Shown here: piece by piece, positions 11,006-48,741 of the stretch
How positions within the stretch are numbered: position 1 is the stretch's first letter
Layout of the letters: the number at the start of each line of letters is the position of its first letter
From: Escherichia coli
GTDB taxonomy: Bacteria; Pseudomonadota; Gammaproteobacteria; Enterobacterales; Enterobacteriaceae
Direction: 5' to 3' (one strand)
DNA: 64,000 nt
Assembly: GCF_009931435.1 (NCBI RefSeq)
Contig: NZ_CP043414.1
Position numbers and translations under genes: made by a program
Notes under the pieces: model-generated
What the model was told of the DNA's origin: nothing
Seen by the model: only the letters and a program-made list of their open reading frames with translations
Database searches by the model: none

Positions 11006-11171
11006 GTACAGGCAACAGTTAGCATTGTGGTGAAAGGATATGGTGTATGTTTGCTCACTTTTTTGTGTTATCTCCTGATCAACCCTATGTCGACTATGGT
11101 AAAATTCCCAACTTTAACACCAACGTAGCAAGTGTTTTATGAGCGCGTAGTCAACCAGTAAGGACATTGAA

Positions 11172-12089
11172 TTGAACATTAACGCAACACCAGTATTAAT
11201 TACACTTGTCTACGAAGCGCTTTTAAGATCCTTTTGGCGTAAACCCGCACTCAAAAAATTTTTGTTATCGTCGCATATTTCTGAAAGCTTCATTTCAACT
11301 TGGAGAGAAGATGAATCAAAAAGAAATTTTTTAGATCGTTTGTTCCCTAAATTACAAAGTAGTGCAAAAGGAAAAAATGTTATCTGCCATATGGCAGTTA
11401 ATCTTTCTGAACAGACTTCTTTTCCTGATTTAAAAGGCTGGGAAGATTCTCTACAAATGATTCAATCTGCAACTGATGCCATAAAAGATTTAAAAAACTA
11501 TATAACAAAACAAAATGAAGAACATCAGACTGAAAAAGAAAAACAAGAGTTCAGAGCACGAGCAGAAAAAGAGAGAACTGAAATAAAACGCTCTGAGACG
11601 GATTTGATGAAATTAAAGAATGAATTTGAGTGTTTGCATAATGAAATAGGAACTCAAAATGGTGGCTACGCATTTGAAAAGTGGTTTTTTAAACTTGTAG
11701 ACTACTGTGAAATTGTCTGTAAAAAACCATATAAAACTAATGGTAGGCAAGTAGATGGAGCCATAACTATTGAAGGCACTACGTACCTTGTTGAATTAAA
11801 ATTTCAGAAAACACAGGCTGACGCCATCGACATCGACTCATTAAAAGCTAAAGTGAGTAAAATGGCTGATAACACGATGGCTGTAATGATTTCTGTATCA
11901 GGTTATTCCTCTGTTGCCATAACTGAATCATCGGGTAGTCGAACCCCTTTATTATTATTAGATTATAGCCATTTATATTTATTCTTGAGTGGTGGAATGA
12001 GATTTGATGAAATAATTACACGGATAAGACGCCATTCTTCACAAACAGGAGAATCTTACCTATCTGTAAATTCATTTGGTGGATTTTAA
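11172..12089 (+). CDS. Putative nuclease: N-terminal domain plus coiled coil plus C-terminal Mrr-like PD-(D/E)xK restriction-endonuclease fold
   Basis: C-terminal GYAFEKWFF...RQVDGAITIEGTTYLVELKFQK fits the Mrr G-x-x-FE / D / E-x-K pattern; apparent TTG start at 11172 with AGGA 7 nt upstream. Confidence 0.55.
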   Translation: MNINATPVLITLVYEALLRSFWRKPALKKFLLSSHISESFISTWREDESKRNFLDRLFPKLQSSAKGKNVICHMAVNLSEQTSFPDLKGWEDSLQMIQSATDAIKDLKNYITKQNEEHQTEKEKQEFRARAEKERTEIKRSETDLMKLKNEFECLHNEIGTQNGGYAFEKWFFKLVDYCEIVCKKPYKTNGRQVDGAITIEGTTYLVELKFQKTQADAIDIDSLKAKVSKMADNTMAVMISVSGYSSVAITESSGSRTPLLLLDYSHLYLFLSGGMRFDEIITRIRRHSSQTGESYLSVNSFGGF

Positions 12090-12149
12090 ATAAACAATAA
12101 TGCTGTATGAAGTAATCTCAGCATTATTGTTTCCAATAATTAATGTTGG

Positions 12150-12527
12150 TTAATCCATCAAGCCGCGTGAAGTCTTACTTGCAGTATGACGAAAATCATA
12201 ACGTTCCACAACATCACCCTTAAACCAGATATCCAGTGATTTAATATGTGCTGTGCTGCTATTGGTCAACAGAGCAAGGCCCGGTATGTAGTTAGATAGC
12301 TGGCTTTCTCCCGTCATACTTGAGTAGTTCCACATCTCCTGTCCATCATTCGTAGCGCGTGTCTGAGGCTCTCCAAAGGCAGCAAGAATTTCTTGTTGGG
12401 TTGTTTTTCCATTGACGATTTTAACTTTAACCGTCTGATGATTTTCATCAGTTAGGGATTTATTACCATGAACGGTACAGCCACTAAGTGGTAATATGAT
12501 AAAAATAGCAAATAACAATTTTTTCAT
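12150..12527 (-). CDS. Lipoprotein, BamE/SmpA-OmlA-like fold (putative)
   Basis: Lipobox MKKLLFAIFIILPLSGC; GKTTQQEILAAFGEPQ resembles the BamE core motif. Confidence 0.55.
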   Translation of the reverse strand: MKKLLFAIFIILPLSGCTVHGNKSLTDENHQTVKVKIVNGKTTQQEILAAFGEPQTRATNDGQEMWNYSSMTGESQLSNYIPGLALLTNSSTAHIKSLDIWFKGDVVERYDFRHTASKTSRGLMD

Positions 12528-12558
12528 TTTAGTTCCATAAATAGATGATAGATGAGAC

Positions 12559-13032
12559 TCAGAAAACATACTTTTTGAATACCAGCATCCATCGCTCGCA
12601 AAGTTCGTGATTTGAAGTGCTTTTATTTTTTAGGGGAACATTAACTTTCCACATGGGATTTTTAATATCATCGGTTAAAATATTGAGGCCAGACCGTTTA
12701 TTCGCTGAAAGTTGTTCTCTCCAGTTAGCAATAGCCGCATTATTCATACCTCGTAATGTTCCATTGCCGTAAAACTTACCACCCTCTGAAAGCGTGTAAT
12801 TTATTTCCCGGATTTCATCAAAAGTATATGTGCTGTCTTTATCTTTATTGAAAATACGGACAGTATGTTTTTGAGTATCAATTACAATACCTGTCTGCTG
12901 GCATTCATAAGAAAGAATGTCGCCGTCCAGAACTTCCGTAAAGCTGTTGTAGTGCTTTTTCTTCTGTATATCTGCTGCGGTCATGATAATGACGAAGAGC
13001 ACCACTAAAAATACGATACCTGTTGCTTCCAC
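12559..13032 (-). CDS. Membrane-anchored hypothetical protein (N-terminal TM helix)
   Basis: GTG start at 13032 preceded by GGAGGAA RBS gives an N-terminus running straight into a hydrophobic helix (IVFLVVLFVIIMTAA); the ORF track's upstream ATG at 13047 lacks an RBS. Confidence 0.5.
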   Translation of the reverse strand: MEATGIVFLVVLFVIIMTAADIQKKKHYNSFTEVLDGDILSYECQQTGIVIDTQKHTVRIFNKDKDSTYTFDEIREINYTLSEGGKFYGNGTLRGMNNAAIANWREQLSANKRSGLNILTDDIKNPMWKVNVPLKNKSTSNHELCERWMLVFKKYVF

Positions 13033-13166
13033 TCTTACTTCCTCCATGTAAATGAGTTAAAGAGACTGAACCCGCTCACAGAGCTTTGCTTCGTTTTATA
13101 CGTGCTACAGCACCAAACTCATGGCGTCGGTCTCGGCGTTGCAAGGCTATCAGAACTTGAAATTAT

Positions 13167-13392
13167 GATCGATATAAAAGATCGATAATTTGTTATTGAT
13201 AGATAATAACGATTGAAAGCGCGATATCGATCGGTGCTTAATTGTTATTATCGATCGAATATCTATTTATGATAGTTGTAAGCTATCGTGCGGTCGTTTT
13301 TGATCGTTTTAAACGATATGACGAGACGCTAAAAGAATTGAATCCTATCAATTGGTTAAGCGGTGGTTTTGCCATGTGATATCAGCCGGATC
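13167..13392. promoter_or_regulatory. Divergent intergenic region with six GATC (Dam) sites and several short palindromes
   Basis: GATC at 13167, 13180, 13229, 13253, 13302 and 13389 within ~225 bp, between divergently oriented envelope-protein genes. Confidence 0.5.
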
Positions 13393-13464
13393 CCGCAACA
13401 ACTCTAGCCCTGACCGGATTAGGTCAAAAATTTAGGCACTTTGATTATCAGGATGGATAAGCAG

Positions 13465-13995
13465 ATGAAGAAGATTTTACTCGTTGCTGGCGCAGCTCTG
13501 GCACTGGCGGGATGTGGTGAGAAAGGTGAGTTTGAGAAAGCGATTAATGCCAAGATTGGGCAAGACAAATACTGCTTCTCGCTGGATAACAATAACACCA
13601 GCTTCCCTATCCGTCTTGCCAAGCCACTACTTGATTCGACTGGCACAGGGACGAATTCAGTGATCCTCGATGGTTTTATTGAGCAGGGCCTGATGGTTTT
13701 TGAGCAGGGTTATGATTCGAATGTATTAGGGATAACAGAGGAAGGCAAAAAAGCCAAAGTCTGGAGCACAACAGACGGTGCCTGTGTTGGTCGTCGTGCT
13801 GTTGACGATATTAAGGAATGGACTGAGCCGGGCAACGGTAATCAGAAAGTCGTTCGCGTGTCTTATACGTGGAAGCTGGTTGACGTTCCGGGCTGGATTG
13901 ACAAAAAAGCGTTCGCCAACGTCAAAGGAATGAATGAACCTGCTGATGGTGCAATAAATCTCGTTAAAACCAGTAATGGCTGGAGAGCTAACTAA
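13465..13995 (+). CDS. Lipoprotein, hypothetical (176 aa)
   Basis: Signal/lipobox MKKILLVAGAALALAGC. Confidence 0.6.
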   Translation: MKKILLVAGAALALAGCGEKGEFEKAINAKIGQDKYCFSLDNNNTSFPIRLAKPLLDSTGTGTNSVILDGFIEQGLMVFEQGYDSNVLGITEEGKKAKVWSTTDGACVGRRAVDDIKEWTEPGNGNQKVVRVSYTWKLVDVPGWIDKKAFANVKGMNEPADGAINLVKTSNGWRAN

Positions 13996-14087
13996 AAGGA
14001 TGCTGGATCGTTAAATGCCCCTGCTACGCTGTGGAAAGTGACAGAAGGGGCATGAATTGTATTTCATTTAATGTAGTGAATGATATT

Positions 14088-14663
14088 TTATTGTATCGAT
14101 TTGTTAGATACTTTCATCAATTTCTCTTGAATTTTTCTTATTCTTTCAAGTTCTTCAACAATGGGATTTTTCTCGCCTTCACTTTGCATGAAAGGGCTTA
14201 AGTCTATATTGTTTTTTTCAACAACTTCTTTATTCATATAACTGTACGTTGCGGTTATTGTAAATTGTTGTGGTAACGGATTTTTCGATTCTCCAAAAAT
14301 AACCCAACCTTGACCAAGGGCGAAGAATAACTCTTGATTGGGCGCTAAGCTATCAATAGTCGATGTAAAAATACTTGTTTCTTTTAGGTTTTTAGTTGGC
14401 TCATCGAACTGATAAAAATCCTTATCTAATTCTAATTTTACATTCAGGGCTGGTGTCTTACCGCTATTATAAATTTTCAGGTATAGGAATTGCGAGTGAG
14501 GTCTTACCATTGGCTGGATTATTATATAAGGACGAGACATTGCCTCGGTTTGCTCATTCATTATCTGAGCTGTTCGTTCGCTTATTCTCGACATCTTGTA
14601 TGTCAAAAATGCATAAATTCCTGTAATGATAACAAGAATTGCTGTAAGTATTTCCATTGTCAT
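14088..14663 (-). CDS. Single-pass membrane protein, hypothetical (191 aa)
   Basis: AGGAG RBS 6 nt upstream of ATG; N-terminal TM helix ILTAILVIITGIYAFLTY. Confidence 0.6.
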   Translation of the reverse strand: MTMEILTAILVIITGIYAFLTYKMSRISERTAQIMNEQTEAMSRPYIIIQPMVRPHSQFLYLKIYNSGKTPALNVKLELDKDFYQFDEPTKNLKETSIFTSTIDSLAPNQELFFALGQGWVIFGESKNPLPQQFTITATYSYMNKEVVEKNNIDLSPFMQSEGEKNPIVEELERIRKIQEKLMKVSNKSIQ

Positions 14664-14709
14664 GATTAACTCCTAAGTATAATGATTCATACCAGTAAGG
14701 TATAATATT

Positions 14710-15204
14710 TTAACTATTATTGCATTTTTTTCTGTTGAATAGTTGATTATATCCAAGTTCCATTTCTTCAATAAAATCTTCATTAAATGTTGGAAATCCA
14801 CACGCCAGTGGTTCTTTCCCTCGAATTTTGAATAAGTTATAAAGATAACTACTTTCTTTATATGCGACATGAATGGCAGGATATGGCCTATTTTTTATAA
14901 TCTTATTGTTTAGTTCCTTATCATTGATAATGTTATATTGATCCCCCGTTATATCAACTACAATATTATCTATCTCAAGCCAGTAATGGGTTATTTGACT
15001 ATTTTTTCCGGTAGTTGCGCTAACTCCTTTTAGCTCACATTCAGGCCATAGGGTCAGAAAATGGTAAGAAAGAAGCATTGAGGTAAGCTTACAACTCATA
15101 ACAGGAAAACAGTCTATAACAAGACTGGTGTTCTTTTTATCACAACTTTCAATTAATCTACGAAGCTTAACTGCTTCTTCTTTTATTTCGATAATGGTTG
15201 GCAA
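14710..15204 (-). CDS. Hypothetical cytoplasmic protein (164 aa), TTG start
   Basis: AGGGAG RBS 6 nt upstream of TTG 15204; no family recognised; contains one R-x5-H (RPYPAIH), a weak HEPN-like hint only. Confidence 0.5.
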   Translation of the reverse strand: MPTIIEIKEEAVKLRRLIESCDKKNTSLVIDCFPVMSCKLTSMLLSYHFLTLWPECELKGVSATTGKNSQITHYWLEIDNIVVDITGDQYNIINDKELNNKIIKNRPYPAIHVAYKESSYLYNLFKIRGKEPLACGFPTFNEDFIEEMELGYNQLFNRKKCNNS

Positions 15205-15282
15205 GATCAGCTCCCTAACTACATGATGTGCCGAGCATTTAATATATACGATACATAGGTCATTAAAAAGTATGTTCTAAAT

Positions 15283-16764
15283 TTAGTGTTTCTTATGGCT
15301 CGGTGGACTCAGTTTTGGCGCGCTTCCTTGCCTCATGTGTTCTGGTGGCATTGAAGGTGTGAGATTTATGCTTCTATTAACTTCCGGCTGTTCCTGATTA
15401 GGACGGCTTGGTAAACGTTTGATTTCATCAGGTGTTAATTTATAGTCACCATTGTTAAATTTGGTACGTTTTTCAAACTCCGAGCGTGGAACATTGACAC
15501 CCAGCACTTCATCATAGACATAGTTCTCTGCGATACGCTTATCATGGTCAGCATCAATGGTATCGGGTTTCCTTCTGGCCCATACAAATCTCTCTTTGAA
15601 GAAGCCCACCACAAGCAGTGTGAAACGCTTAAACAAACCATTTTGTCGTGGCTTAGTCTGTTTCCTACTTCTCATCGGAGCACGGTTTATCGCTCTGGTG
15701 TTTCGAGAAGAAGGGGTTTCCAGTTTAGTGGATGCAGTTGGTTCAGGAACAATCAGAACGGGAGATTTCTTCCCTGAAATACTTACTTTACTGACCTTAT
15801 TAGGATTACGGTATGATTTTGCTGCTGGTCTTCTGCTTGTAGTTGCTGTTGCCACAATCGGCTGTTGTTCTACTGTTACCGGGTCGTCTGGAAGAACAAT
15901 CTCTTCGGGGTCAGGAAGAATTGTTATCTCAAAGCTTCTGACATCAACAACGATCTCCAGTGGTAGCTCACTGAATGTGGTGTAGACCTTCTTGGCCTCT
16001 TCAATTTGATGATCGCGTTGAGCTTGTTCAACAGATCGCTGTTCCTGAGACTCTTTGTCATTCCATTTAGCACGATGAACACGTTGCATTGCCGGGCGGT
16101 TAGTTTCCGTTGCTTTGGCAAGCCAGAACGCTTTTTCTTCAGCGCTGAATGCTTCTTCTGCCTGAGCAAGGGCATCAGCACATTGAGTTCTGAGAGAACG
16201 GTGATCGATACGTTCTTCACTGCCTGCAGTCTCAAGGTAGCTGTTTGACATCGTGGCCCATGACTCACGCCACTGAACAACCATCTTCTTATCATTCCAG
16301 CTTCTGTCTTTTTTACCGAAGCCTTCGGGACCGATAGTTTTCAGGGTTAACATGACGTGAGCATGGGGATTCTTACCATCTAAATCGTGGAATGCGATAT
16401 CAGCAATCATTCCTTTATCAGCAAAGTTCTTCTGGCAGTATTCGGCAACTAATTTTTTCTTGTCATCATTGCTGAGTTCTACGGGAATAGCGACATCAAA
16501 ATAACGGGCTGTTTGACCATTGTTCTGGCGTTCCACTCTTTCAACTTCATTCCAGAGTGCTGACGAGCTTTCAACAATATGAGCAGGTGCGGAAACAGGG
16601 GCTAATATAATATGACCATGAAGATCTGTTCTGTGGCTGAAATCAAATGTCTCGCCAATGCGATCATCTTTAATACGTGTACGGGCATGGTAGGCAGCTT
16701 TCGCAACAGAAGTCATGCCTTCGCTTCGTTTCACAATTTTAAAATCCAGATGAAAAATCGCCAT
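15283..16764 (-). CDS. mobA: MobA/MobL-family (MOBQ) conjugative relaxase
   Basis: N-terminus MAIFHLDFKIVKRS...AKAAYHAR with candidate catalytic Tyr; three-His motif HDLDGKNPHAHVML (H-x-D-x4-N-x-H-x-H). Confidence 0.85.
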   Translation of the reverse strand: MAIFHLDFKIVKRSEGMTSVAKAAYHARTRIKDDRIGETFDFSHRTDLHGHIILAPVSAPAHIVESSSALWNEVERVERQNNGQTARYFDVAIPVELSNDDKKKLVAEYCQKNFADKGMIADIAFHDLDGKNPHAHVMLTLKTIGPEGFGKKDRSWNDKKMVVQWRESWATMSNSYLETAGSEERIDHRSLRTQCADALAQAEEAFSAEEKAFWLAKATETNRPAMQRVHRAKWNDKESQEQRSVEQAQRDHQIEEAKKVYTTFSELPLEIVVDVRSFEITILPDPEEIVLPDDPVTVEQQPIVATATTSRRPAAKSYRNPNKVSKVSISGKKSPVLIVPEPTASTKLETPSSRNTRAINRAPMRSRKQTKPRQNGLFKRFTLLVVGFFKERFVWARRKPDTIDADHDKRIAENYVYDEVLGVNVPRSEFEKRTKFNNGDYKLTPDEIKRLPSRPNQEQPEVNRSINLTPSMPPEHMRQGSAPKLSPPSHKKH

Positions 16765-17409
16765 TAAAAATATAACCTCAAATAAAAGTAATGCTGTTAG
16801 TTTTTCGTAAGAAAAACTTCGGGGTTGACGTTGACCTTGGTTTTACTTTTAGCCTGCGGCAGCAACCGTCGGTAGACCCCACACACTGCGTAGCAGTGTA
16901 TAGGTGGGCATTGTCTTTAAGAAAATAAGCCAATGTAAAATGCCCCTCTTATTAATTAATACGAAATATATGTATGGTTGTAAAATAATACGCCGGAATA
17001 AGCGGCGCAAACTGGATTAAAGGTGTAGGTTTCACGTCCACAGAACAAAAAGAGTAAAGAAAAGGCCCGTAAGGGCAAAAGAAATATTAATTATTCCCGC
17101 CGTAAGGCGGGATAGCTAAATTTGATGGAAAAAAACCAATAAAACAGAGAGTGTTATGTGTTGCACAATTCACAGGTTGAGATTGGAAAATAGAGTTTAA
17201 AATTGACAGGTGAAAATAAAAGCACAAATGCGCAAAAATAAGTAACGCGGAGAGTGCCAGATGTTTTTGGTTAGTGAATACTATCATATGCGTTGCACAT
17301 ATTTATAAAGAAATGTATCAGAATCATTCTCTCTGACAAAACAGACTAAATTTGACGTTATTTATCTTTGTGATAATTAAAATAAGATATAATAATAGAA
17401 GGAGGTAGT
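16765..17409. other. Candidate oriT region between divergent relaxase and mobC-like genes
   Basis: Hairpin acactgc-gta-gcagtgt at 16883-16899; two GTAA(G)-loop hairpins (gccc-gtaa-gggc, cccgcc-gtaa-ggcggg) at 17064-17108; geometry mirrors RSF1010 mobC-oriT-mobA. Confidence 0.4.
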
Positions 17410-17715
17410 ATGGATAATGAAAGTAAAAGACCAAGAACAGAAAAAACATTAAAGCAAAAGGTTGCTTTTGCTCAGCTTGAACTTAATCGTCTTAAGTCTC
17501 TGGAAAAATCAGAGCGAAAGAAAGTTGAAACAAGACTCAAGATTATACTTGGTGCGGAAGTGGCTAAGGCTATGAATTGTAGTGTCGAACAGGTGGATAA
17601 AGAGCTTGTTATGGGGATTTTGCTTTCAGCATCTGACCTGAATGATATTGAAAAAATAACATATATAAAAGCAGGCAGTAAGTTTCTCGCGCAAATGGAG
17701 GGAAGACAAAAATAA
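17410..17715 (+). CDS. MobC-like relaxase accessory protein (putative)
   Basis: 101-aa charged coiled-coil protein transcribed divergently from the relaxase; assignment is by position and size only. Confidence 0.35.
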   Translation: MDNESKRPRTEKTLKQKVAFAQLELNRLKSLEKSERKKVETRLKIILGAEVAKAMNCSVEQVDKELVMGILLSASDLNDIEKITYIKAGSKFLAQMEGRQK

Positions 17716-17976
17716 TAATATTTAAATTTATTTTGATTCAGGTATTGATATCTGATTATTATCTGTTATCTATATAAAAGAACAGAACGCAGGATCATCC
17801 TTTATTAATATTTTTTCCTTTTCAATCATGCGTTCTGTTCGACCAGTAATCTGTTAATTTTTATCTTTATGTAGTGAACGTTATTATTACTTTTTTATCA
17901 GATATGATAAATATCCCATGAGGAAGTAATAATAACAGTAGTAGTGATAACAAATGTTGTTTTTAAATCTCCCGGA

Positions 17977-18002
17977 AGGCAAAGAGAAATCTTTGCCTTT
18001 TT
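17977..18002 (+). terminator. Rho-independent terminator (ggcaaaga-gaaa-tctttgcc + TTTTTT)
   Basis: Perfect 8-bp stem, tetraloop and U-tract, about 110 bp upstream of pilS. Confidence 0.6.
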
Positions 18003-18112
18003 TAATTCATCCGTCTGTCAGATAGAATTAAATATATCTTTCTATTTCTATTGCCAGATATGAGAGAAGCGTTATAACAGGAGTTATCATTAAAACAAAA
18101 AAGGAGATGATA

Positions 18113-18670
18113 ATGGTTTTATTAAATAACAAAAGAAAAGGCAAGAAAGGTTTCTCACTACTCGAGCTATTACTTGTTTTAGGCATCATTGCTGCATTAG
18201 TGGTAGCGGCTTTTATCGTTTATCCCAAGGTTCAGGCTTCACAAAGAGCACAGGCCGAATCCAATAACATTGCCACCATACAGGCAGGTGTTAAAGCGTT
18301 ATACACATCGGCTTCAAGTTTTACTGGCCTGACAAATACTGTGGCTGTTCAGGCAAAAATCTTCCCTGACAATATGTTAAGTGGGTCAGGAACGGCTGCT
18401 AAACCCATCAATGCCTTTAAAGGTAATGTGACGCTGGCTGCTACAGCTACAGGACCATCATCAGCGGCTGGCTCTTCTTTCACTATCACATACGATAATG
18501 TGCCAGCAGCGGAATGTGTGAAGATTGCGACAGCGGCAGCAGGTAATTTCTACATTACCACGGTTGGAACCAAGGTTGTTAAAGCCGCAAGAGGAACACT
18601 TGATGTGGCAGCTACGGCAGCGGCCTGTAATAACGCCACAAGTAATACATTAGTTTTCACGTCTATCTAA
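18113..18670 (+). CDS. pilS: Type IV prepilin, PilS-like major pilin (type IVb, IncI-thin-pilus-like)
   Basis: Long basic leader then G-FSLLELLLVLGIIA (prepilin peptidase motif with Glu+5); AAGGAG RBS 6 nt upstream of ATG 18113. Confidence 0.75.
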   Translation: MVLLNNKRKGKKGFSLLELLLVLGIIAALVVAAFIVYPKVQASQRAQAESNNIATIQAGVKALYTSASSFTGLTNTVAVQAKIFPDNMLSGSGTAAKPINAFKGNVTLAATATGPSSAAGSSFTITYDNVPAAECVKIATAAAGNFYITTVGTKVVKAARGTLDVAATAAACNNATSNTLVFTSI

Positions 18671-18722
18671 TGAAGAGGGCGCAGGCCCTTTTCTTTCTTA
18701 TTGCTAAAACAGGGAGATAATT

Positions 18723-20186
18723 ATGATAAAGAATAAAGGATTTACCTTACTGGAAGTCAGTATTGTGTTAGGCATTGGAACACTTATCGCTTTTATGAAG
18801 TTTCAGGATATGAGAAACAATCAGGAAGCGGTATTGGCTGATAATGTTGGAACACAGATTAAACAGCTTGGCGAAGCTGTTAACCGCTATATCAGTATTC
18901 GCTATGACAAGATTTCCACACTGTCATCATCCAACAATCAAAGTAGCGATCCGGGGCCAAGAACATGTTCGGCTGCTGGTTGTGAAATCACTTACCAGAC
19001 GTTAATTAATGAAGGTCTGTTGCCTGTCGGCTATACAGGAACTAACGCGCAAAAAGCATCTTACAAGATTGTGTTAAAGCGTTCAGGAACAGCGCCTGAT
19101 TACGTTATTAATGGTCTTATAACAACCGCTAGCCCGTGGGAAGAAGGTGGTCGTATTCGTTATGATCTATTAGGTAAAGCGGTTCAGGCGGCAGGTGTTG
19201 ATGGTGGTATGAGCAGAAACACCAAGATAGCTTCCGGCTATGGTGGTCAGTGGAGTGAGAACTCTAATAGCTACAGCAATATCACGGGTGGTGGATTGCT
19301 GGCTTACCGCGTGGGGTATAACTCTTCAATGTATTCTGTTTATCTGCGTCGTGATGGAACGTTGCCAATGACGGGTGATCTGAATCTTGGTGGGAAGAGC
19401 ATCAAAAACATCAAAGATATGACAGCATCAGGGACAACAACAACCGGAGCACTTAAGACAACGGGTAATGCGTCTGTTGCGTCAGATCTGAGTGTGGGTG
19501 GAACCTCGACCCTTAATGGTCCTGTAAATATCAACAACAACCTGAAAGTAAAATTTGATACCTATCTTAATACGCTATCAACAACAGGTCTGGCGAAGTT
19601 TGGTAGCCGTATTGCGACGAACGGACTTAATCCAAACGATCTGCCCGCTGGCTGGGCTGGCGGTGTTCGCACCTATGATTTGTATGCGTCGGGGACTGTT
19701 GGTGTTGGAACCGGTAAAACAGTTAAAGCTTACATGAACAATGCGGGTAATATTTATGCGTCAGGTAATCTTACCGCCGGGACGATAAAATCCAACGGAA
19801 CAATTGAATCAACAGGCAGAATCAAAGCAGGTGAATATCTCCACCTGAATGGTCAGGCAACGTTGAATGCGAAATGTACGCCTAATGGTTTGGTGGGACG
19901 AGACAGTACAGGTCGAGTGTTATCGTGTGTTAACGGTAAATGGCAGACAGCAAGTGGTGATGGCCTGAAAGGTATTTTTATAACGATAACAGATCAAATC
20001 TCTGGTTATAAATGCGTTATACCGAATAGTGATACTGGAACATGTGCCTGTCCGGGATCAACGTATAGTCCTCAGTTTGGTTATATATCTGGAACCCTTA
20101 TTGCAGAATATAATGAGGAGCGTTGTAGTGGTGGTAGGAATACACATTGTTATAGTAATTTCAGAAGGTTATATGCATGTCGGTAA
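18723..20186 (+). CDS. pilV: Type IV prepilin-like minor pilin/adhesin, PilV-like (487 aa)
   Basis: N-terminus MIKNKG-FTLLEVSIVLGIG (prepilin motif) followed by a large G/T/S-rich, Cys-containing domain. Confidence 0.7.
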   Translation: MIKNKGFTLLEVSIVLGIGTLIAFMKFQDMRNNQEAVLADNVGTQIKQLGEAVNRYISIRYDKISTLSSSNNQSSDPGPRTCSAAGCEITYQTLINEGLLPVGYTGTNAQKASYKIVLKRSGTAPDYVINGLITTASPWEEGGRIRYDLLGKAVQAAGVDGGMSRNTKIASGYGGQWSENSNSYSNITGGGLLAYRVGYNSSMYSVYLRRDGTLPMTGDLNLGGKSIKNIKDMTASGTTTTGALKTTGNASVASDLSVGGTSTLNGPVNINNNLKVKFDTYLNTLSTTGLAKFGSRIATNGLNPNDLPAGWAGGVRTYDLYASGTVGVGTGKTVKAYMNNAGNIYASGNLTAGTIKSNGTIESTGRIKAGEYLHLNGQATLNAKCTPNGLVGRDSTGRVLSCVNGKWQTASGDGLKGIFITITDQISGYKCVIPNSDTGTCACPGSTYSPQFGYISGTLIAEYNEERCSGGRNTHCYSNFRRLYACR

Positions 20187-20221
20187 TCTCGCTATGGATG
20201 ATTTCATAAATTACAGGTAAG

Positions 20222-20239
20222 AAGGGCCGATAGGCCCTT
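20222..20239. terminator. Hairpin between convergent pilV and Lamassu-like operon (aagggcc-gata-ggccctt)
   Basis: Perfect inverted repeat in the 60-bp convergent gap. Confidence 0.45.
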
Positions 20240-20246
20240 TCAGCTA

Positions 20247-21998
20247 TTATGAGGTTTGTAATAAAGAGAAGGCGTCATCCAATAGAATTTTCTCGCTATT
20301 GTTTATCTCTTTATTTAATAGAAATGATCTCACTGATTTTGCATTACCGATACAAATTTGTTTCGCTTTTCCTGCGAAATATTTCTTATTTATTTCATTG
20401 ATATCAAAAAGTGGATTGTCATTAATTTCGTTTTTTTTATATTCTGCTACGGTAAATAGCATTTGCTCATTATTACCAGATTCATTTCCTAAGAACTTAA
20501 AAATAAGATCTCTATTTCCAATATCTATATCTTCTTTGAATATAGCATCTAACAAAAATGGAAATTTATGGATTGTTTTTCTTTTATTGATTAATTTAAT
20601 AAAGGAAAAATGATAAGCCATGATTATTTTATGTAATTCAACCCCTTGGAAGGGGAAGGATGTAATGGAATAAAGATTTTGATACCTTGGATTATTAGGT
20701 ATTATTATCTTCAAAGCTTTTGCTTTTTCGCTGAAAATAGTTAAAAATTCCTTGTCAATGTTGTTTCGGAGAGAGTTAATTTGTGAATCTGTGAGTAGGT
20801 TGTCAATTTGGGTGTTAAGGTTTGATATTTTTTCGACATAATTAGCTTCTTTAATTTTAATATCATTTAAAATGGTGATATTTGCACGGTGATTAACCCA
20901 ATGGTCAAAGTCAATATTTTCGATTCTCGATTCTTTTAACACCTCATACTCAAGCTTTATTTTTTCACTATCGTGTTTGATCTTTCTTTCAACAGAATTT
21001 AATGATGACGAAACATTTTTAATTTCTTCAGTTATACGTTCTTTTTCTCGTAACGCATCGTTAATATCTTGAGTATAGATATATAATTGTCTAAGATCGC
21101 CGGGTAGCGTTTGTTCGCATACAGGACATGTGTCAACGCTGGGTTTTTGAAGTTTTAAATTTCGAATAGTTTGTAAAAGTACTTTTTGACGCCCACGTAA
21201 CATACTGAGTTTATTGCATAGTTTTTCATAATTAGCTTCTTCCGTAATCAGATTTTCTGCTAATATGTTGTATTTTTTTAAGTAATCAATTGCTTCCCCT
21301 TTGAATCGAGACTCTAATATCTCAGAGATTTTAAGAGAGCTATCTTTTGTTTTGTATTGAATTAATTGCTCTCTTTCATATTCAATTTGTTGTTTTTCTT
21401 TTTGCAACATATATTTTTGCAATCTGTCCGTACGATCTTTTATGCCTGCGTAGTAATCAAGGTAGTCATATTTGAAGTCTTTATAAAATCTATAATCACC
21501 TATTGATTCTCTTAGATAAACCCAACCAACAGATTGAGATATATAGAATGGCAAGAATGCAGCTTCTATCGGTGCATCAGTAAACTTAGTTTGGTTCTGT
21601 AATGTTAGATTAAAGTCAAATAAGTGGTTAAATAATTTTTTGTATCTTGCATATTCATATGAGTTATTTCCATTAATGCCATCAAACCGTAGGGGGACTC
21701 TATCATCAATGCGAACGACGAGAGTATCATCAAATCGAACAAATACAACCGTATGAGATGATTTTACTTTTATTATTTCACACTCAAGACGAAAGAGTAC
21801 TCTTTCTGTAAGAATGTCGTGCAAATTTTCTTTGGAATCATTAACACCCATTGTGTACAAAATTGATTGCATTAATGTACTTTTCCCTGATGTGTTCCTC
21901 CCGTGAATAATATTGACTGAGTCACCAAAATCAGTGCAAAAAAAACCTTTATTATTCATAGAGTATGCTAAAATGCTTTTCAGAATTAATTTAGACAT
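20247..21998 (-). CDS. SMC/Rad50-like ABC ATPase with coiled coil and CxxC hook (Lamassu LmuB-like)
   Basis: Walker A GRNTSGKST near N-terminus; long heptad-rich middle; CPVCEQ in mid-protein; start ATG 21998 with GAGGAA RBS overlaps upstream stop (ATGTCTAA). Confidence 0.65.
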   Translation of the reverse strand: MSKLILKSILAYSMNNKGFFCTDFGDSVNIIHGRNTSGKSTLMQSILYTMGVNDSKENLHDILTERVLFRLECEIIKVKSSHTVVFVRFDDTLVVRIDDRVPLRFDGINGNNSYEYARYKKLFNHLFDFNLTLQNQTKFTDAPIEAAFLPFYISQSVGWVYLRESIGDYRFYKDFKYDYLDYYAGIKDRTDRLQKYMLQKEKQQIEYEREQLIQYKTKDSSLKISEILESRFKGEAIDYLKKYNILAENLITEEANYEKLCNKLSMLRGRQKVLLQTIRNLKLQKPSVDTCPVCEQTLPGDLRQLYIYTQDINDALREKERITEEIKNVSSSLNSVERKIKHDSEKIKLEYEVLKESRIENIDFDHWVNHRANITILNDIKIKEANYVEKISNLNTQIDNLLTDSQINSLRNNIDKEFLTIFSEKAKALKIIIPNNPRYQNLYSITSFPFQGVELHKIIMAYHFSFIKLINKRKTIHKFPFLLDAIFKEDIDIGNRDLIFKFLGNESGNNEQMLFTVAEYKKNEINDNPLFDINEINKKYFAGKAKQICIGNAKSVRSFLLNKEINNSEKILLDDAFSLLQTS

Positions 21999-23079
21999 AC
22001 ATTCCTCTTGTCTCAACATATGCAGCTATTATCGCAAATGCAATCATGTGTTTTTCTAACCTTGAATTATATGTGTTAATATAAGTTTGATATAATTCAG
22101 TAATACAATCTGCTTCATCTGTATGTTTATAATCTATTTGTGTGTTTTCTGATACAAATTTATAAATCTTTTTGTATTCTACTTGTTGAAAATCTTTAAA
22201 AAAATCGAAACAGTTATCTAATAATTCTTGCGCTCTTCTTTTTATAGGGAGCTTAATTGATAATCCTTTCGCCAATTTATCTGCATGAGAACGCCAAAAG
22301 TTGAAAGCTTTTTTACTTTCTTGGAACATACTGAATGTTGCATCAATTTTTTGTTTGGTCAAACGCTTTGACCTATCTGTAAGTAAAGCATATCCAGCAT
22401 TATTATATGTTAACTCAACATCTTGCAATAAAGCCATTAGAGTTGTTATTACAGCGTCATGATCACTAACCTTACAACCTAGAACCTCAGTAGATAAACC
22501 TGTTAGCGTTCTTCTCCACCCTTTATAAGTTTGAGGAAGGTCAATGAAACTAAATTTTACATTAGAGAGTTGCTTAAAATCTGCAATTTCTCCATCTATT
22601 AGTTTTGATTGAATGTTTTCTTTGATTTCATCATGTAGATCAGAATAATTTTTAGAGATGTTTGTTACTTGTATTTTTTCTACTTTGCATTTTTTACCTT
22701 TTTCTTTCTTACCCTGAAGTATAATATTTCGATTTGTCAAGAAAGATAGAGTGTGTTTGTAATCATCAGATTTGGGGTGTTTATCGTTGATAAGTTCATT
22801 TCCAACAAGCGATATTTTTCCGATGATCTCACAAAATTTTTGATCCGTTTTCCAGTCATCTCTTGATTTTTTAGCTTGATAAGTATCAATGCGACTAATG
22901 TCACCATTTTCATCAACAAAGGCAAAAAGAAAATCTTCATGGTGTTCAACACATATAAAATAATCTAGCAATGGAGAGTTTAGTTTTTCGTAATCATCAA
23001 AAAGAAGGTATACAACACAACAACGTTGGAATGTATATCCTGAGCCTCCCTCAACTCCTGAGTTGACGCTTTCTGACAT
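21991..23079 (-). CDS. Mrr-like PD-(D/E)xK nuclease-domain protein (Lamassu LmuA-like effector, putative)
   Basis: N-terminal GYTFQ ... VEHHEDFLFAFVDENGD ... IDTYQAKK fits the Mrr-type G-x-x-FE / D / (Q/E)-x-K pattern; translationally coupled to the downstream ATPase. Confidence 0.5.
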   Translation of the reverse strand: MSESVNSGVEGGSGYTFQRCCVVYLLFDDYEKLNSPLLDYFICVEHHEDFLFAFVDENGDISRIDTYQAKKSRDDWKTDQKFCEIIGKISLVGNELINDKHPKSDDYKHTLSFLTNRNIILQGKKEKGKKCKVEKIQVTNISKNYSDLHDEIKENIQSKLIDGEIADFKQLSNVKFSFIDLPQTYKGWRRTLTGLSTEVLGCKVSDHDAVITTLMALLQDVELTYNNAGYALLTDRSKRLTKQKIDATFSMFQESKKAFNFWRSHADKLAKGLSIKLPIKRRAQELLDNCFDFFKDFQQVEYKKIYKFVSENTQIDYKHTDEADCITELYQTYINTYNSRLEKHMIAFAIIAAYVETRGMYV

Positions 23080-23348
23080 TTTTTGTTGCCCCTGTTAATC
23101 AAATCATAGCGTAAATCTATTAATACATATTTAACATTGGCTTTATGTATGAAATACGCATTCTCCTTAGCTAAAGGATATTATAAAGTGGACTAAAAAT
23201 CATCTAACACCTTGCAAAATGTGAAGTTTTTCTTCATGTAAAACTCATAAATAACGTTACTATTCTGTTAGTAACGAAATAATCGGGAAACTTGCTATTT
23301 ACGGTTTACAGGAATCTTAATCAAAGTTGTGTAAAAGTTTAATCTTAC

Positions 23349-23606
23349 TTATTGAGCAAATTCAAACTGCCTGACCATCCCATCCCGGTTAGCATCAAGA
23401 AAATCTGCCCACCACTGTAGCATTAACCTTCGCTGCTCAAGATGCTTGGCCTTATGGGTATAGGCAGCACGAACACTGTTGCTTTCCTTGTGGATCATCT
23501 GGAGTTCCACCGCATCTTCAGACCATAGCCCTGATTTAATCAGAGCACTACATGCCAGTGTGCGGAAACCATGACCAGAGATGTCCTGTGTGGTGTCATA
23601 GCCCAT
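23349..23606 (-). pseudogene. C-terminal remnant of a second P4-type tyrosine integrase
   Basis: 85-aa ORF aligns with the last ~80 residues of the adjacent intact integrase (…RxxYxHK…LxxRRxMLQWW…) but is divergent from it and lacks everything upstream. Confidence 0.6.
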
Positions 23607-23624
23607 TTATGCATTCTCTTGTTA

Positions 23625-24854
23625 TCAAGCAGCCATAGCCCTATACTTTTGCGCCTTAACGTAATCTCCCCACCATTGCATAAGCACTTCTCGCTCCCCT
23701 AAATATTCAGCTCGATTGTAGGCTGCTATGATTTCAGTGCTTTTGGTATGGGCCAATGCTGCTTCAAGAACTTCTGTTCTGAATTTGCCACTCTCTTCGG
23801 CGGCTGTTCTGGCAATAGAACGCATACCATGAGCTACCAGTTCACCACCCAACCCCATACGAATCAATGCGGCGTTGGCTGTCTGCTCATGCATGTGGGC
23901 CAATGGTGTTTTTATGCTGGGAAATACCCATTCACGATGACCGCTGATAGGCTGCATGTTTTCCAGAATGCGAAGTGCCTCTTTGCTTAATGGCACTTTA
24001 TGAGGCCGTTTCATCTTCATAAACTCTGGTGGGATGTTCCAGATTTTATTCTCTGTATCGATGTCAGCCCAACGAGCACGAACAGCCTCACCGGGGCGAA
24101 CCCATGTCAGCAGTTGCCATTCAATCAGCATACGGGTTTCCAGACGGATGGATGCGTTTGCCAGTGCAATCATAAACCGGGGGATTTCGCTTGGTGGTAA
24201 TGCTGGCATATTTTGTTTTTTGGGCTTACTGAAACGTTGACCAAGGTTGTCGGCTGGGTTGAACTCAATGAGTTCTTCTGTGGCAGCATAGCGAAAAATT
24301 TCATTCAGGCGGGAAATGATGCGACGTAGAGTTTCAAGCACACCCCGTTGTTCAATTGGGTCGAGATGCTGCTTGAGCATTTTGGGGCGGATCTCTTTGA
24401 TAGGGACATCACCCAGAGTGGGAAAGATGTTCCGTTCAAGGCTACGCCAGATGTCTTCTGCATGATCTTGGGATATACCGGAAGTCTTAATCTTTTCATC
24501 CAACCACTTTCTTGCAACAGCCTGTAGCGTGTTTTCAGTCGCATCTTTTAGTGCATTGGCTTTTTCGTTGTTATGGACTTGAGGATCGATACCGTTGGCA
24601 AGTAGGGAGAGATACTCATCCCGCAAAGTTCGTGCCTTAGCCAAGGTAAGGTGAGGGTAGGTTCCAAGACTCATTTTTGTGCGTTTTTTGGTCACTGGCA
24701 CTGAATACCTGAAATACCAGTTTTTCTTCCCTCCTTTTGTGTCTGGCGCTATGCGTAGCAGTAATCCATCTCCATCAAAGAGGTTGATTTCCTTATCGCC
24801 GGGTTTGGTATTTTTGATTTCAGTATCAGTAAGTTTTTTTGCGAGCTTTGCCAT
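23625..24854 (-). CDS. intA: P4-type tyrosine integrase (IntA-like) adjacent to ssrA
   Basis: 409 aa; C-terminal catalytic region ...VAHGMRSIARTA...ALAHT...AAYNRAEY; sits directly downstream of the tmRNA 3' end as in CP4-57. Confidence 0.9.
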   Translation of the reverse strand: MAKLAKKLTDTEIKNTKPGDKEINLFDGDGLLLRIAPDTKGGKKNWYFRYSVPVTKKRTKMSLGTYPHLTLAKARTLRDEYLSLLANGIDPQVHNNEKANALKDATENTLQAVARKWLDEKIKTSGISQDHAEDIWRSLERNIFPTLGDVPIKEIRPKMLKQHLDPIEQRGVLETLRRIISRLNEIFRYAATEELIEFNPADNLGQRFSKPKKQNMPALPPSEIPRFMIALANASIRLETRMLIEWQLLTWVRPGEAVRARWADIDTENKIWNIPPEFMKMKRPHKVPLSKEALRILENMQPISGHREWVFPSIKTPLAHMHEQTANAALIRMGLGGELVAHGMRSIARTAAEESGKFRTEVLEAALAHTKSTEIIAAYNRAEYLGEREVLMQWWGDYVKAQKYRAMAA

Positions 24855-25018
24855 TTGGGACCCTCAAGTTTTGGACCCTTTCCGTTGGGTCCCAAAAAGG
24901 GTGCCATAAGTTGTGGTTCTCAGCAATTCTCCCTGAACTATAGTGAACGTAAAAAAGCCCGCAGAGCTTGTGCTGTGCGGGCTTAGTGAACTTCACTGAA
25001 CGTTAGTGTATCAATATT

Positions 25019-25381
25019 TGGTGGAGCTGGCGGGAGTTGAACCCGCGTCCGAAATTCCTACATCCTCGGTACTACATGCTTAGTCAGTCTTTACATTCGC
25101 TTGCCAGCTGCGGACGGACACGCCACTAACAAACTAGCCTGATTAAGTTTTAACGCTTCAACCCCAGGCAGGGCTTCCACGCGATCTCTTTTGGGTTTGA
25201 CCTCTCTTGATCCCCGTCCTAAGAGCGGAGGCTAGGGAGAGAGGGCTCTAAGCAGGTTATTAAGCTGCTAAAGCGTAGTTTTCGTCGTTTGCGACTATTT
25301 TTTGCGGCTTTTTACGAGGCCAACCGCCCCTCGGCATGCACCTTGGGTTTCGCAAATCCCGTCGAATCCAGAATCAGCCCC
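25019..25381 (-). ncRNA. ssrA: tmRNA (SsrA), 363 nt
   Basis: Reverse complement reads GGGGCUGAUUCUGGAUUCGACGGG ... GCAAACGACGAAAACUACGCUUUAGCAGCUUAA (tag reading frame) ... GGUUCAACUCCCGCCAGCUCCACCA. Confidence 0.97.
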
Positions 25382-25595
25382 AATGTGTAACGGTAAGTAT
25401 ACCAGATTCATGAGTGCCATGACCAGCCTCAATGGCGTTATCGTTAAAGATTTAGCACCCGTGTAGCCTGATTTTTATTCGATTAAGCAATGGGATGGCA
25501 ACATTTGGGTCGGATGTGATAGCCAATAAGATGTTCATTCGCGCCGCCGGAGAGGGTGGCGCGGTGAGGAACCGGTCAATAATTGGAGTGCAGAT

Positions 25596-46329: not shown

Positions 46330-46740
46330 ATGCACGCAAAAGAAGAAGGTATCATCAGAGCACTGAAAGAAATTTCAAAGACAGAAAACGAAGTAGCGAA
46401 AAAAGCCATAGCAAATAATCATATGGACGTCGCAACCCACACACTGATAGTCGCAAGAGTCACGGCAGAAGCAGCCGAAATTATCGCAAAACAGGATGCT
46501 GAACTGGCGGTTCTCAGAACACAACCAGTCACCGGACTGGATTTGTCTAACACCGGACGCCTTATTTACACAATTGGCTCGGAGCTACAGCGATACACCA
46601 TTATCGCCGGGTTACAGGATAAATACCTGATCACTCCTCACCCCATAAGGGAATCAGAAATTCTGACAAATCTCCGCCTGATAGAGCGCTCTCAAGTCGC
46701 ATTCATTGATGACGCACAGTGCACCGTATTTAACGCATAG
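46330..46740 (+). CDS. Hypothetical phage protein (136 aa)
   Basis: Early-operon ORF. Confidence 0.5.
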   Translation: MHAKEEGIIRALKEISKTENEVAKKAIANNHMDVATHTLIVARVTAEAAEIIAKQDAELAVLRTQPVTGLDLSNTGRLIYTIGSELQRYTIIAGLQDKYLITPHPIRESEILTNLRLIERSQVAFIDDAQCTVFNA

Positions 46741-46763
46741 AGTTACTGGACAAAGGGGGCGCA

Positions 46764-46967
46764 ATGGCAATTAAGCATTTTCCCGTCGTTCGCTTTACCT
46801 CCAGAGGGCGCGAATACGAGGTCGACGAACGCCTGATTACCACTATCGACAAACATCGTTCGGAAAAGGATGCACACCACATCTACCTCACTGACGGCAC
46901 TTACTTCTGCGCCACTAATGTGGCGCGGGTAAACCTTATCCGACAGGTACAGGAGCCACGCAGATGA
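46764..46967 (+). CDS. Hypothetical phage protein (67 aa)
   Basis: Stop overlaps next start (ATGA). Confidence 0.45.
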   Translation: MAIKHFPVVRFTSRGREYEVDERLITTIDKHRSEKDAHHIYLTDGTYFCATNVARVNLIRQVQEPRR

Positions 46968-47526: not shown

Positions 47527-47537
47527 AGGACCGCGAT

Positions 47538-48571: not shown

Positions 48572-48577
48572 TTAAAC

Positions 48578-48623: not shown

Positions 48624-48741
48624 AGTATGCCGTTCTCACAAAAAAACCGCTTGCCATGCCGCAATCAGTCAGGTTACATTTCCGCTGCACCTCATAAAAC
48701 GGGTGCCGGGTTTCGCAGCCTGCTGACAACCAAAGCGCACA

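What the first reader, a model, noticed from the sequence alone, without database searches (positions are those of the whole stretch)
23349..24854. Integrase C-terminal remnant 18 bp downstream of the intact ssrA-proximal integrase
The 85-aa ORF aligns with the catalytic C-terminus of a P4-type integrase but is clearly a different allele from the intact gene beside it. This implies successive occupation of the ssrA att site by different islands with recombination or deletion leaving a truncated int, and so a mosaic origin for the present cargo. I did not find a second copy of the ssrA 3' end inside the window.
Basis: seen in the sequence. Interest (0 to 1): 0.4.

Follow-up and report, generated by a model that had tools for sequence, protein, structure and literature searches.

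The report
Integrase scar beside imported defence cassette
The 85-codon ORF is a dead 3' end of a tRNA-Asn-specific integrase that arrived with a Lamassu anti-phage cassette when that cassette moved from a sister island into this ssrA-integrated mobilizable island; it is an ordinary recombination scar, but it dates the cargo swap.

Summary
ORF 23349..23606 (-), 18 nt after the intact integrase (23625..24854), is the last 85 codons of a P4-type tyrosine integrase, a different allele (31% aa identity). The fragment is 92% nt-identical to full-length integrases that lie beside tRNA-Asn genes in all six E. coli genomes checked, never ssrA. These belong to the ROD21-like (EARL) mobilizable islands. 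The window's island (5557..25018) has the same backbone: AlpA, RepL, MobQ, TraD, PilS, PilV. Its ssrA-specific integrase is 98.8% identical to that of an Escherichia fergusonii ssrA island with no scar and different cargo. The scar is contiguous with a Lamassu cassette (LmuA/LmuB, 20247..23079). The tract ~20050..23533 is 97-100% identical to an asn-type island (KFu019), against 92-95% for the flanking backbone. The junction lies 2 nt after the integrase stop codon, with at most 2 nt of microhomology. The scar is therefore donor flank from an illegitimate cassette import, not a trace of an earlier ssrA occupant. The scarred island later spread: at most 3 differences in 7-11 kb across strains whose adjacent core differs by up to 1.4%. 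This is a known kind of feature, of modest interest.

The parts
25019..25381 (-). ssrA (tmRNA), the integration target; its 3' end forms attL (the core CGCCAGC lies at 25026..25032)
   Evidence: ARAGORN; Rfam RF00023 at 295.8 bits; sequence read directly
23625..24854 (-). Intact ssrA-specific P4-type integrase, 409 aa (CP4-57 IntA family)
   Evidence: Three Pfam domains. NCBIfam PRK09692 at 450.8 bits, above the 434 cut-off. 50% aa identity to K-12 IntA. 98.8% nt identity to the E. fergusonii ssrA island integrase. Relatives at 90% aa identity or more lie next to smpB-ssrA in Pectobacterium and Yersinia.
23349..23624 (-). Scar: the last 276 nt of a tRNA-Asn-type (EARL) integrase gene. The 85-aa ORF 23349..23606 starts at an internal Met codon; 23607..23624 is degenerate, with 4 mismatches and a 1-nt deletion.
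   Evidence: Annotated as a pseudogene in the RefSeq record of KFu019.
23321..23348 (-). 28 nt of conserved sequence that follows the stop codon of intact asn-type integrases; this is the edge of the cargo hotspot in the donor family
   Evidence: The alignment to CI5 continues to window 23321
21991..23079 (-). LmuA (DUF4297-type Lamassu effector), 362 aa
   Evidence: PADLOC PDLC00244, E 2e-137, full length
20247..22019 (-). LmuB (SMC-like Lamassu ATPase), 583-590 aa
   Evidence: PADLOC PDLC00250, E 2e-224, full length; weak SMC_N hit
20050..23624 (.). Imported tract shared with the asn-type island of E. coli KFu019 (97-100% identity as far as 23533); the left crossover is within the last ~100-150 nt of pilV
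   Evidence: Sliding-window identities; collinearity
18723..20186 (+). PilV-like pilus tip adhesin; conserved backbone gene that bounds the cargo hotspot
   Evidence: Pfam Shufflon_N; RefSeq annotation of homologues
18107..18670 (+). PilS-type type IV major pilin
   Evidence: Pfam PilS, E 1.5e-28
17410..17715 (+). TraD-like protein
   Evidence: Precomputed Pfam TraD on the identical gene; RefSeq annotation of homologues
15283..16764 (-). MobQ/MobA_MobL relaxase
   Evidence: Pfam MobA_MobL, E 2.7e-54
7754..8311 (-). RepL-like protein
   Evidence: Pfam RepL at 25 bits, above the 20.3 cut-off
6147..6347 (+). AlpA-family recombination directionality factor at the distal end of the island
   Evidence: Pfam Phage_AlpA, E 1.2e-16; the exact protein occurs in 3444 assembly blocks
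5557..5563 (-). attR vestige: CGCCAGC, the only remaining copy of the ssrA 3' end. It marks the left border of the island.
   Evidence: Alignment with K-12 psaA. Homology to the Salmonella-type and E. fergusonii islands starts exactly here.

Best explanation
The 85-aa ORF is a non-functional scar. It is the last 276 nt of the integrase gene of a tRNA-Asn-targeting ROD21-like (EARL) mobilizable island.

EARL-type islands keep variable, mostly anti-phage cargo in one slot between the integrase stop codon and the 3' end of pilV. The island in the window belongs to a sister lineage with the same backbone (AlpA, RepL, MobQ, TraD, PilS, PilV) but a CP4-57-type integrase that targets ssrA.

A recombination event replaced the slot content of such an ssrA island with the Lamassu (LmuA-LmuB) cassette of an asn-type island. 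On the pilV side the two islands are homologous, so the crossover left no mark. On the integrase side they share no DNA homology (33% aa identity). The join there was illegitimate. It landed 2 nt after the resident integrase's stop codon and 276 nt before the donor integrase's stop codon. The donor's integrase 3' end therefore came in as flanking DNA.

The resident integrase, attL and the AlpA/attR end stayed intact. The scarred island subsequently integrated at ssrA in several E. coli backgrounds.

Shown: the identity of the scar, its parent family, the junction, the extent of the shared tract, a scar-free relative, and later spread. Inferred: the direction and mechanism of the exchange, and the non-function of the ORF.
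For: - The scar is 92% nt-identical over 276-305 nt to intact integrases of CI5, E2348/69 and KFu019. Six of six such integrases lie next to tRNA-Asn. CI5 and E2348/69 IE3 are listed EARL islands (PMC6035254).
- The window backbone 6276..20180 is collinear at 91-96% with asn-type, serU-type and E. fergusonii islands. Pfam confirms the backbone genes.
- The E. fergusonii island CP079884.1 has a 98.8% identical int/attL module and a left end 95.9% identical to window 5557..10052. It has no scar and carries a NOV_C protein in the slot. The sequences diverge right after TGATA.
- ssrA-type integrases head EARL-like islands with other defence cargo and no called scar in Pectobacterium (HEPN_LA2681) and Yersinia (Kiwa).
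- Window ~20050..23533 is 97-100% identical to KFu019, against 92-95% for the flanking pil and mob genes.
- The cargo is Lamassu. Many asn-type islands share the pilV and integrase 3' flanks but have unrelated cargo between them.
- KFu019 carries a stack of two scars (serU-type then asn-type) in front of the same cassette. The same kind of event therefore recurred.
- The reading frame is broken just upstream of the ATG: a 1-nt deletion and stop codons. Four residues invariant in the intact integrases are changed.
- The exact integrase is indexed in 51 assembly blocks. In every locus inspected it has the same neighbours. The island shows 0-3 differences per 7-11 kb while the adjacent 10-kb core shows up to 135-140. 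Core divergence starts 5-80 nt beyond ssrA.
Against: - No ancestor with an intact asn-type integrase directly followed by this Lamassu cassette was found. Only KFu019-type (already scarred) and window-type contexts exist.
- The pil region is about equally distant (~95%) from all compared relatives. The left crossover is therefore inferred from one identity step near 20000-20100, not from a sharp breakpoint.
- The same product could be described as replacement of the integration module in an asn-type island.
- attR is reduced to 7 nt, which is awkward for an island claimed to be recently mobile. However, attR ends vary in all relatives.
- Non-expression of the ORF was not tested. Several gene callers do call it.
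Confidence: 0.78

Rival explanations
1. Integration-module replacement. An asn-type EARL island that already carried Lamassu lost its attP, the 5' three quarters of its integrase and its AlpA end. It gained the corresponding alpA'-attP-int module of an ssrA island; this module is one contiguous piece in the excised circle. The island was thereby retargeted from tRNA-Asn to ssrA. The scar is what was left of the old integrase.
For: The int module (23623..25056) and the AlpA/attR end (from 5557) both match the E. fergusonii ssrA island best, and they are adjacent in a circular form. Integrase replacement in EARL relatives, giving Phe- or Ser-tRNA targets, is reported (PMC10763509). KFu019 shows stacked integrase scars.
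Against: The E. fergusonii-like tract is not limited to a small module. It runs 5557..10052 at 95.9%, against 91-92% to the asn and serU types. The tract specifically close to an asn-type island is only ~3.5 kb. ssrA-type EARL-like islands exist independently in several genera without scars. This makes the ssrA island the more likely recipient. The two descriptions differ only in which parent contributed more DNA.
Confidence: 0.14
2. An earlier island occupied ssrA, a second island integrated in tandem, and a deletion removed most of the older island. The stump of the older island's ssrA-specific integrase was left behind.
For: ssrA is a well-known multi-occupancy site (Hochhauser 2023, hotspot #9; Williams 2003, from my own knowledge). 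Tandem prophage-plus-island arrays occur in relatives. attR is degenerate and varies between hosts.
Against: The parent integrase type lies at tRNA-Asn in 6 of 6 cases and is only 31-33% identical to ssrA integrases. There is no internal ssrA repeat between the integrase and the remnant; they are joined directly. The remnant is contiguous with asn-island cargo at the native spacing.
Confidence: 0.04
3. The 85-aa ORF is an expressed small protein. One possibility is a C-terminal integrase fragment that interferes with asn-type integrases of competing islands, or that regulates the adjacent Lamassu genes.
For: The ORF is open, starts with ATG, keeps the HxxR, H and Y residues, and is called as a gene in several assemblies.
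Against: The ATG is an internal Met codon of the parent gene. There is no good Shine-Dalgarno sequence and no promoter-like site on the minus strand upstream. The KFu019 copy is truncated by a further 91 nt and fused out of register to another scar, so the ORF is not conserved with the cassette. Its 90%-identity cluster holds only partial integrases. RefSeq marks the equivalent as a pseudogene.
Confidence: 0.03

Closest known systems
[quoted passage not shown] Enteritidis, IE3 of EPEC E2348/69, ICEKp258.2 (Pina-Iturbe et al. 2018, PMC6035254; 2023, PMC10763509)
   Same: The backbone and gene order match: P4-type integrase next to the att site, then a variable cargo slot, PilV, PilS, TraD, MOBQ relaxase, RepL, conserved small ORFs, and an AlpA-type RDF at the far end. 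DNA identity to listed members (CI5, E2348/69) is 90-95%. The remnant itself is an EARL integrase 3' end.
   Different: The island is integrated at ssrA, not tRNA-Asn. Its integrase belongs to the CP4-57 IntA clade (33% aa identity to EARL integrases). It has no H-NS or H-NST homologue. The EARL papers read here do not mention tmRNA-integrated members; they report only rare Phe- and Ser-tRNA variants.
CP4-57 cryptic prophage / IntA-AlpA at ssrA of E. coli K-12
   Same: Same target gene, same chromosomal slot (ssrA to ypjA), an integrase of the same family (50% aa identity), and an AlpA-type factor. attR lies at the same position as psaA.
   Different: The cargo and backbone are unrelated, and K-12 has no integrase remnant. 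The window's attR keeps 7 of the 14 nt of psaA.
[quoted passage not shown] 2023, PMC10121019), with tmRNA as hotspot #9
   Same: One fixed position in a conserved element holds different defence systems in different copies: Lamassu, Kiwa, HEPN, DUF262+HEPN, TIR proteins.
   Different: Here the exchange crossed between islands with non-homologous integrases and left a datable scar. The cited work does not describe such scars.
Lamassu type I (LmuA DUF4297 + LmuB) defence system
   Same: Full-length matches to both PADLOC profiles; two overlapping genes in the usual order.
   Different: No LmuC is present. Anti-phage activity was not tested.

Membership tests
P4-type tyrosine integrase (the 85-aa ORF) | Catalytic domain with the full R-K-H-R-H-Y set | tested here: not met
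   Only the second-box residues are present: HGFR, the H of IHKE, and the Y of AAY. Box I Arg and the Lys lie upstream of the breakpoint. It is a fragment, not a member able to act.
P4-type tyrosine integrase (the 85-aa ORF) | N-terminal arm-binding (DUF4102) and central SAM-like domains | tested here: not met
   Absent. The ORF matches only Pfam PF00589 positions 123-170 and PRK09692 positions 336-401.
P4-type tyrosine integrase (intact gene 23625..24854) | Three-domain architecture and a position directly 3' of a tRNA or tmRNA gene | tested here: met
   Arm-DNA-bind_3, Phage_int_M and Phage_integrase are all above their cut-offs. PRK09692 scores 450.8, above 434. The gene lies 164 nt from ssrA.
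EARL / ROD21-like genomic islands (whole island) | [quoted passage not shown] | tested here: not met
   The island is integrated at ssrA. No tRNA-Asn 3' end occurs in the window. The integrase is 33% identical to the CI5 EARL integrase.
EARL / ROD21-like genomic islands (whole island) | Distal RDF (AlpA-like) followed by conserved genes of unknown function | tested here: met
   AlpA at 6147..6347. Window 6162..7108 is 90% identical to CI5.
EARL / ROD21-like genomic islands (whole island) | MOBQ relaxase, TraD and type IV pilus-related genes | tested here: met
   91-95% DNA identity to CI5, KFu019 and E2348/69 across these genes.
EARL / ROD21-like genomic islands (whole island) | H-NS or truncated H-NS homologue (present in many but not all members) | tested here: not met
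   The segment that carries H-NST, DUF6404 and H-NS in 2016C-3878 (L006 20825..22240) is absent between window 7108 and 7178.
EARL / ROD21-like genomic islands (whole island) | Excision as a circle and transfer with a helper | not testable with these tools
   Only indirect evidence: a near-identical island in diverged chromosomal backgrounds.
Lamassu defence system | LmuA effector plus LmuB SMC-like ATPase encoded together | tested here: met
   PDLC00244 at E 2e-137 and PDLC00250 at E 2e-224, both full length; the genes overlap.
Lamassu defence system | Protection against phage | not testable with these tools

The most novel reading that the evidence does not exclude
Integrase 3' scars at the integrase-proximal slot may form a readable stratigraphy of defence-cassette traffic between island lineages that target different att sites (tRNA-Asn, serU, ssrA). 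Cassettes would normally swap through the conserved integrase 3' and pilV 3' arms and leave scars only when they cross between lineages. A further possibility is that the retained C-terminal fragment is expressed and interferes with integrases of competing asn-type islands.
Probability: 0.15. Interest if true: 0.55.

Novelty: new member of a known kind. Interest (0 to 1): 0.3.

Why it matters
The scar is direct sequence evidence that an anti-phage system (Lamassu) moved between two related mobilizable islands that use different chromosomal integration sites. It also shows that the recombinant stayed mobile and spread through E. coli.

The result extends the ROD21-like island family, so far described at tRNA-Asn with rare Phe and Ser variants, to an ssrA-targeting lineage. 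I found that lineage in Escherichia, Yersinia and Pectobacterium, and probably in Salmonella.

It offers a practical marker: integrase stumps next to the cargo slot can be used to trace defence-cassette exchange. It does not reveal a new mechanism or a new type of gene.

Tried and rejected
- **ssrA and tRNA-Asn repeats.** I searched the window for a second ssrA 3' end (23 nt, up to 3 mismatches) and for a tRNA-Asn 3' end, and found none. A k-mer scan found a 10-nt TTCAACTCCC match at 5732..5741. I rejected it as attR because the K-12 alignment and the start of homology to relatives put the border at 5557..5563.
- **General direct-repeat search** over 1..25400 gave only autotransporter repeats and chance pairs.
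- **Ancestor search.** I looked for an intact asn-type integrase directly upstream of this Lamassu cassette. The 5,426 complete E. coli genomes gave only KFu019. Exact-protein look-ups of both LmuA alleles gave only the two already-scarred contexts.
- **Larger KFu019-derived tract.** I first thought a 6-kb tract (17409..23533) came from the KFu019 type. Sliding windows showed the high identity is confined to ~20050..23533.
- **Organism of CP079884.1.** I first assumed it was Salmonella. Source names say Escherichia fergusonii. The hin-fljB-fljA neighbours of L018-L025 are Salmonella-like by gene content only.
- **Williams 2003**, 'Traffic at the tmRNA gene', is not held in the library.
- **PADLOC and Pfam** gave nothing convincing for the 327-aa and 305-aa ORFs at 10022..12089.
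- **Promoter and terminator scan** of 22900..25100 found fewer promoter-like sites than shuffles and nothing that assigns a role to the remnant.

Full report
**1. The observation**

The window is an E. coli chromosome segment. The smpB-recN region is 99.6% identical to E. coli genomes. ssrA lies at 25019..25381 on the minus strand.

A 409-aa integrase with the full P4-type architecture follows at 23625..24854. Its domains are Arm-DNA-bind_3, Phage_int_M and Phage_integrase.

Eighteen nucleotides further on is the 85-aa ORF 23349..23606. It aligns with the catalytic C-terminus of its neighbour at 31% identity (E 2e-13). It also matches the end of Pfam Phage_integrase and of NCBIfam PRK09692.

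**2. What the remnant came from**

At the DNA level, window 23321..23624 is 92% identical to the 3' end of full-length integrase genes in many E. coli genomes. I inspected six of these: CI5, E2348/69, KFu019, M8, ws5-3 and SW07099. Every one lies directly beside a tRNA-Asn gene.

[quoted passage not shown] That family was defined by a shared integrase/RDF module at Asn-tRNA genes, a MOBQ relaxase, TraD and type IV pilus genes.

The remnant's parent is only 33% identical in protein to the intact integrase beside it. The intact integrase is 50% identical to K-12 IntA of CP4-57.

**3. The island as a whole**

The island spans 5557..25018. From right to left it contains:
- the integrase, then the scar
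- LmuA (21991..23079) and LmuB (20247..22019), with PADLOC E values of 2e-137 and 2e-224
- PilV, PilS, TraD, the MobQ relaxase and RepL
- small conserved ORFs and an AlpA-type RDF at 6147..6347

It is collinear at 91-96% with three relatives:
- EARL islands at tRNA-Asn (CI5, KFu019)
- a sister island with a third, 406-aa integrase, lying between serU and zinT (2016C-3878)
- an island at ssrA in Escherichia fergusonii CP079884.1 (named)

The left border is a 7-nt vestige of the ssrA 3' end, CGCCAGC at 5557..5563. It lies at the position of K-12 psaA, with the CCACCA part missing. Homology to the E. fergusonii and Salmonella-type islands starts exactly there.

**4. The junction and the shared tract**

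The E. fergusonii island has an int/attL module 98.8% identical to window 23623..25056. It has no integrase remnant and carries a NOV_C-domain gene in the slot. The two sequences are identical through the stop codon plus 2 nt (TGATA) and then diverge completely. From the next base the window follows the asn-type integrase. At most 2 nt of microhomology are shared.

Sliding-window comparison shows where the asn-type ancestry lies. Window ~20050..23533 is 97-100% identical to KFu019. The pilV, TraD and MobQ genes to its left are only ~92-96% identical to KFu019 and equally close to every other relative.

The asn-derived DNA is therefore a ~3.5-kb piece. It holds the last ~100-150 nt of pilV, LmuB, LmuA, their upstream region, the 28 nt that normally follow an asn-type integrase, and that integrase's last 276 nt.

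**5. Mechanism (inferred)**

The slot between the integrase stop codon and pilV holds different cargo in every relative examined:
- Lamassu
- a 583-aa protein
- DUF262 plus HEPN
- TIR proteins
- a VOC-family protein
- a NOV_C protein
- HEPN_LA2681
- Kiwa

Many asn-type islands share both flanks with the window but not the cargo. This is what exchange through conserved flanks would produce.

When the Lamassu cassette entered an ssrA-type island, the pilV side could recombine by homology. The integrase side could not, so an illegitimate join brought in the donor's integrase 3' arm.

Selection explains why the join lies just outside the resident integrase: any join inside it would have immobilised the island.

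The alternative wording is that an asn-type island received a new alpA'-attP-int module. This is formally the same event. I rank it lower for two reasons:
- The E. fergusonii-like ancestry covers at least 5557..10052 plus the int module.
- ssrA-targeting EARL-like islands exist without scars in E. fergusonii, Pectobacterium atrosepticum and Yersinia enterocolitica.

**6. Recurrence**

KFu019 carries the same cassette behind an intact asn-type integrase, with two stacked scars between them. One is a 111-nt piece 94.5% identical to the serU-type 406-aa integrase. The other is a 185-nt asn-type piece 98.9% identical to the window's scar. That junction is also illegitimate, with 1-3 nt of microhomology.

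The window's scar (276 nt) is longer than KFu019's, so neither derives from the other. Both descend from an unsampled asn-type island with an intact integrase. I searched for that ancestor and did not find it.

**7. After the event**

The exact integrase is indexed in 51 assembly blocks. In every locus inspected it has the same neighbours.

Across strains the island differs by 0-3 positions in 7-11 kb. The adjacent 10 kb of core differs by up to 135-140 positions, and that divergence begins 5-80 nt beyond ssrA. One metagenomic copy (L010) even has 11 differences inside ssrA but an identical 3' end. This pattern fits repeated site-specific integration of the already-scarred island.

In one E. 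coli assembly and in E. fergusonii, a lambdoid prophage sits between ssrA and the island, bounded by a duplicated ssrA 3' end. So tandem occupation of ssrA does happen in this system, but it leaves att repeats, not integrase stumps.

**8. Is the ORF functional?**

Probably not, for these reasons:
- It begins at an internal Met codon.
- The frame upstream is broken by a 1-nt deletion and stop codons.
- It lacks box I and both N-terminal domains.
- Four residues invariant in intact relatives are changed.
- The KFu019 copy is cut shorter and fused out of register.
- RefSeq marks the KFu019 equivalent as a pseudogene.
- Its sequence cluster holds only partial integrases.

Expression was not tested.

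**9. Novelty**

EARL islands, their excision modules and occasional integrase replacement (Phe- and Ser-tRNA variants) are published (PMC6035254; PMC10763509). The tmRNA gene as a defence-island hotspot and dedicated cargo slots in mobile elements are also published (PMC10121019).

An ssrA-targeting EARL-like lineage and the use of integrase scars to trace cassette exchange are not mentioned in the papers I could read. Both are extensions of known kinds rather than something new in kind.

Noticed in passing
window 20247..23079: A complete two-gene Lamassu system (LmuA DUF4297-type plus LmuB) is the cargo next to the remnant. It was unannotated ('hypothetical') in all public relatives seen.
   Followed up: yes
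window 10022..12089: Two ORFs (327 aa and 305 aa) have no Pfam match and only weak PADLOC hits. They occupy a second variable slot of the island. Relatives carry SIR2+TIR (2016C-3878), a 936-aa SIR2_2 protein (E. fergusonii) or DUF4238 (KFu019, CI5) there. This is possibly an undescribed defence pair.
   Followed up: partly
window 5557..5563; L007 23973..23986; L018, L019, L021 near 3400: The attR end of the island is constant up to CGCCAGC. It is then followed by a variable stub of the ssrA end: CCACCA in K-12, CCAA, CCA or C in relatives, and nothing in the window. In E. fergusonii it is followed by CP4-57-like attL-proximal sequence.
   Followed up: partly
L001 8100..8395 (E. coli KFu019; the same layout in 175 assembly blocks): Two stacked integrase scars (serU-type, then asn-type) lie between an intact asn-type integrase and the same Lamassu cassette. 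This implies at least two successive events at the slot.
   Followed up: yes
L009 1..10000; L029 1..3760: A lambdoid prophage (integrase with Arm-DNA-bind_2) is inserted between ssrA and the island, with a ~35-nt duplicate of the ssrA 3' end. This is a true tandem array at ssrA.
   Followed up: partly
window 18107..20186: The island encodes only a PilS-type pilin and a PilV-type tip adhesin. No pilus biogenesis genes and no shufflon recombinase are present. This suggests it supplies subunits to the thin pilus of an IncI-type helper plasmid.
   Followed up: no
L018, L020-L025 (loci with hin-fljB-fljA neighbours): The exact 66-aa AlpA and the island's left 1.5 kb (97% identity) occur in thousands of assemblies next to the phase-2 flagellin locus. 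They are followed by a retron-type reverse transcriptase plus an STM3845-like gene instead of the EARL backbone.
   Followed up: no
window ~46500..53700 and beyond; RNAs at 48687..48884: A P2-like prophage, 94-97% identical to Escherichia phage P88 over ~7 kb, carries isrK and C4 antisense RNA matches. GC content rises to 0.55-0.59 towards the end of the window.
   Followed up: partly
L010 (metagenome scaffold), equivalent to window 25070..25304: This copy has 11 substitutions inside ssrA, but its ssrA 3' end and island are identical. That is consistent with the island bringing its own copy of the ssrA terminus.
   Followed up: no
L003 4991..9940 (E2348/69 IE3): An intact asn-type integrase plus DUF262/HEPN genes lie upstream of a nearly full-length but frameshifted second integrase. 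This looks like a small integrase-plus-defence unit inserted in tandem, a different route to integrase pseudogenes.
   Followed up: no
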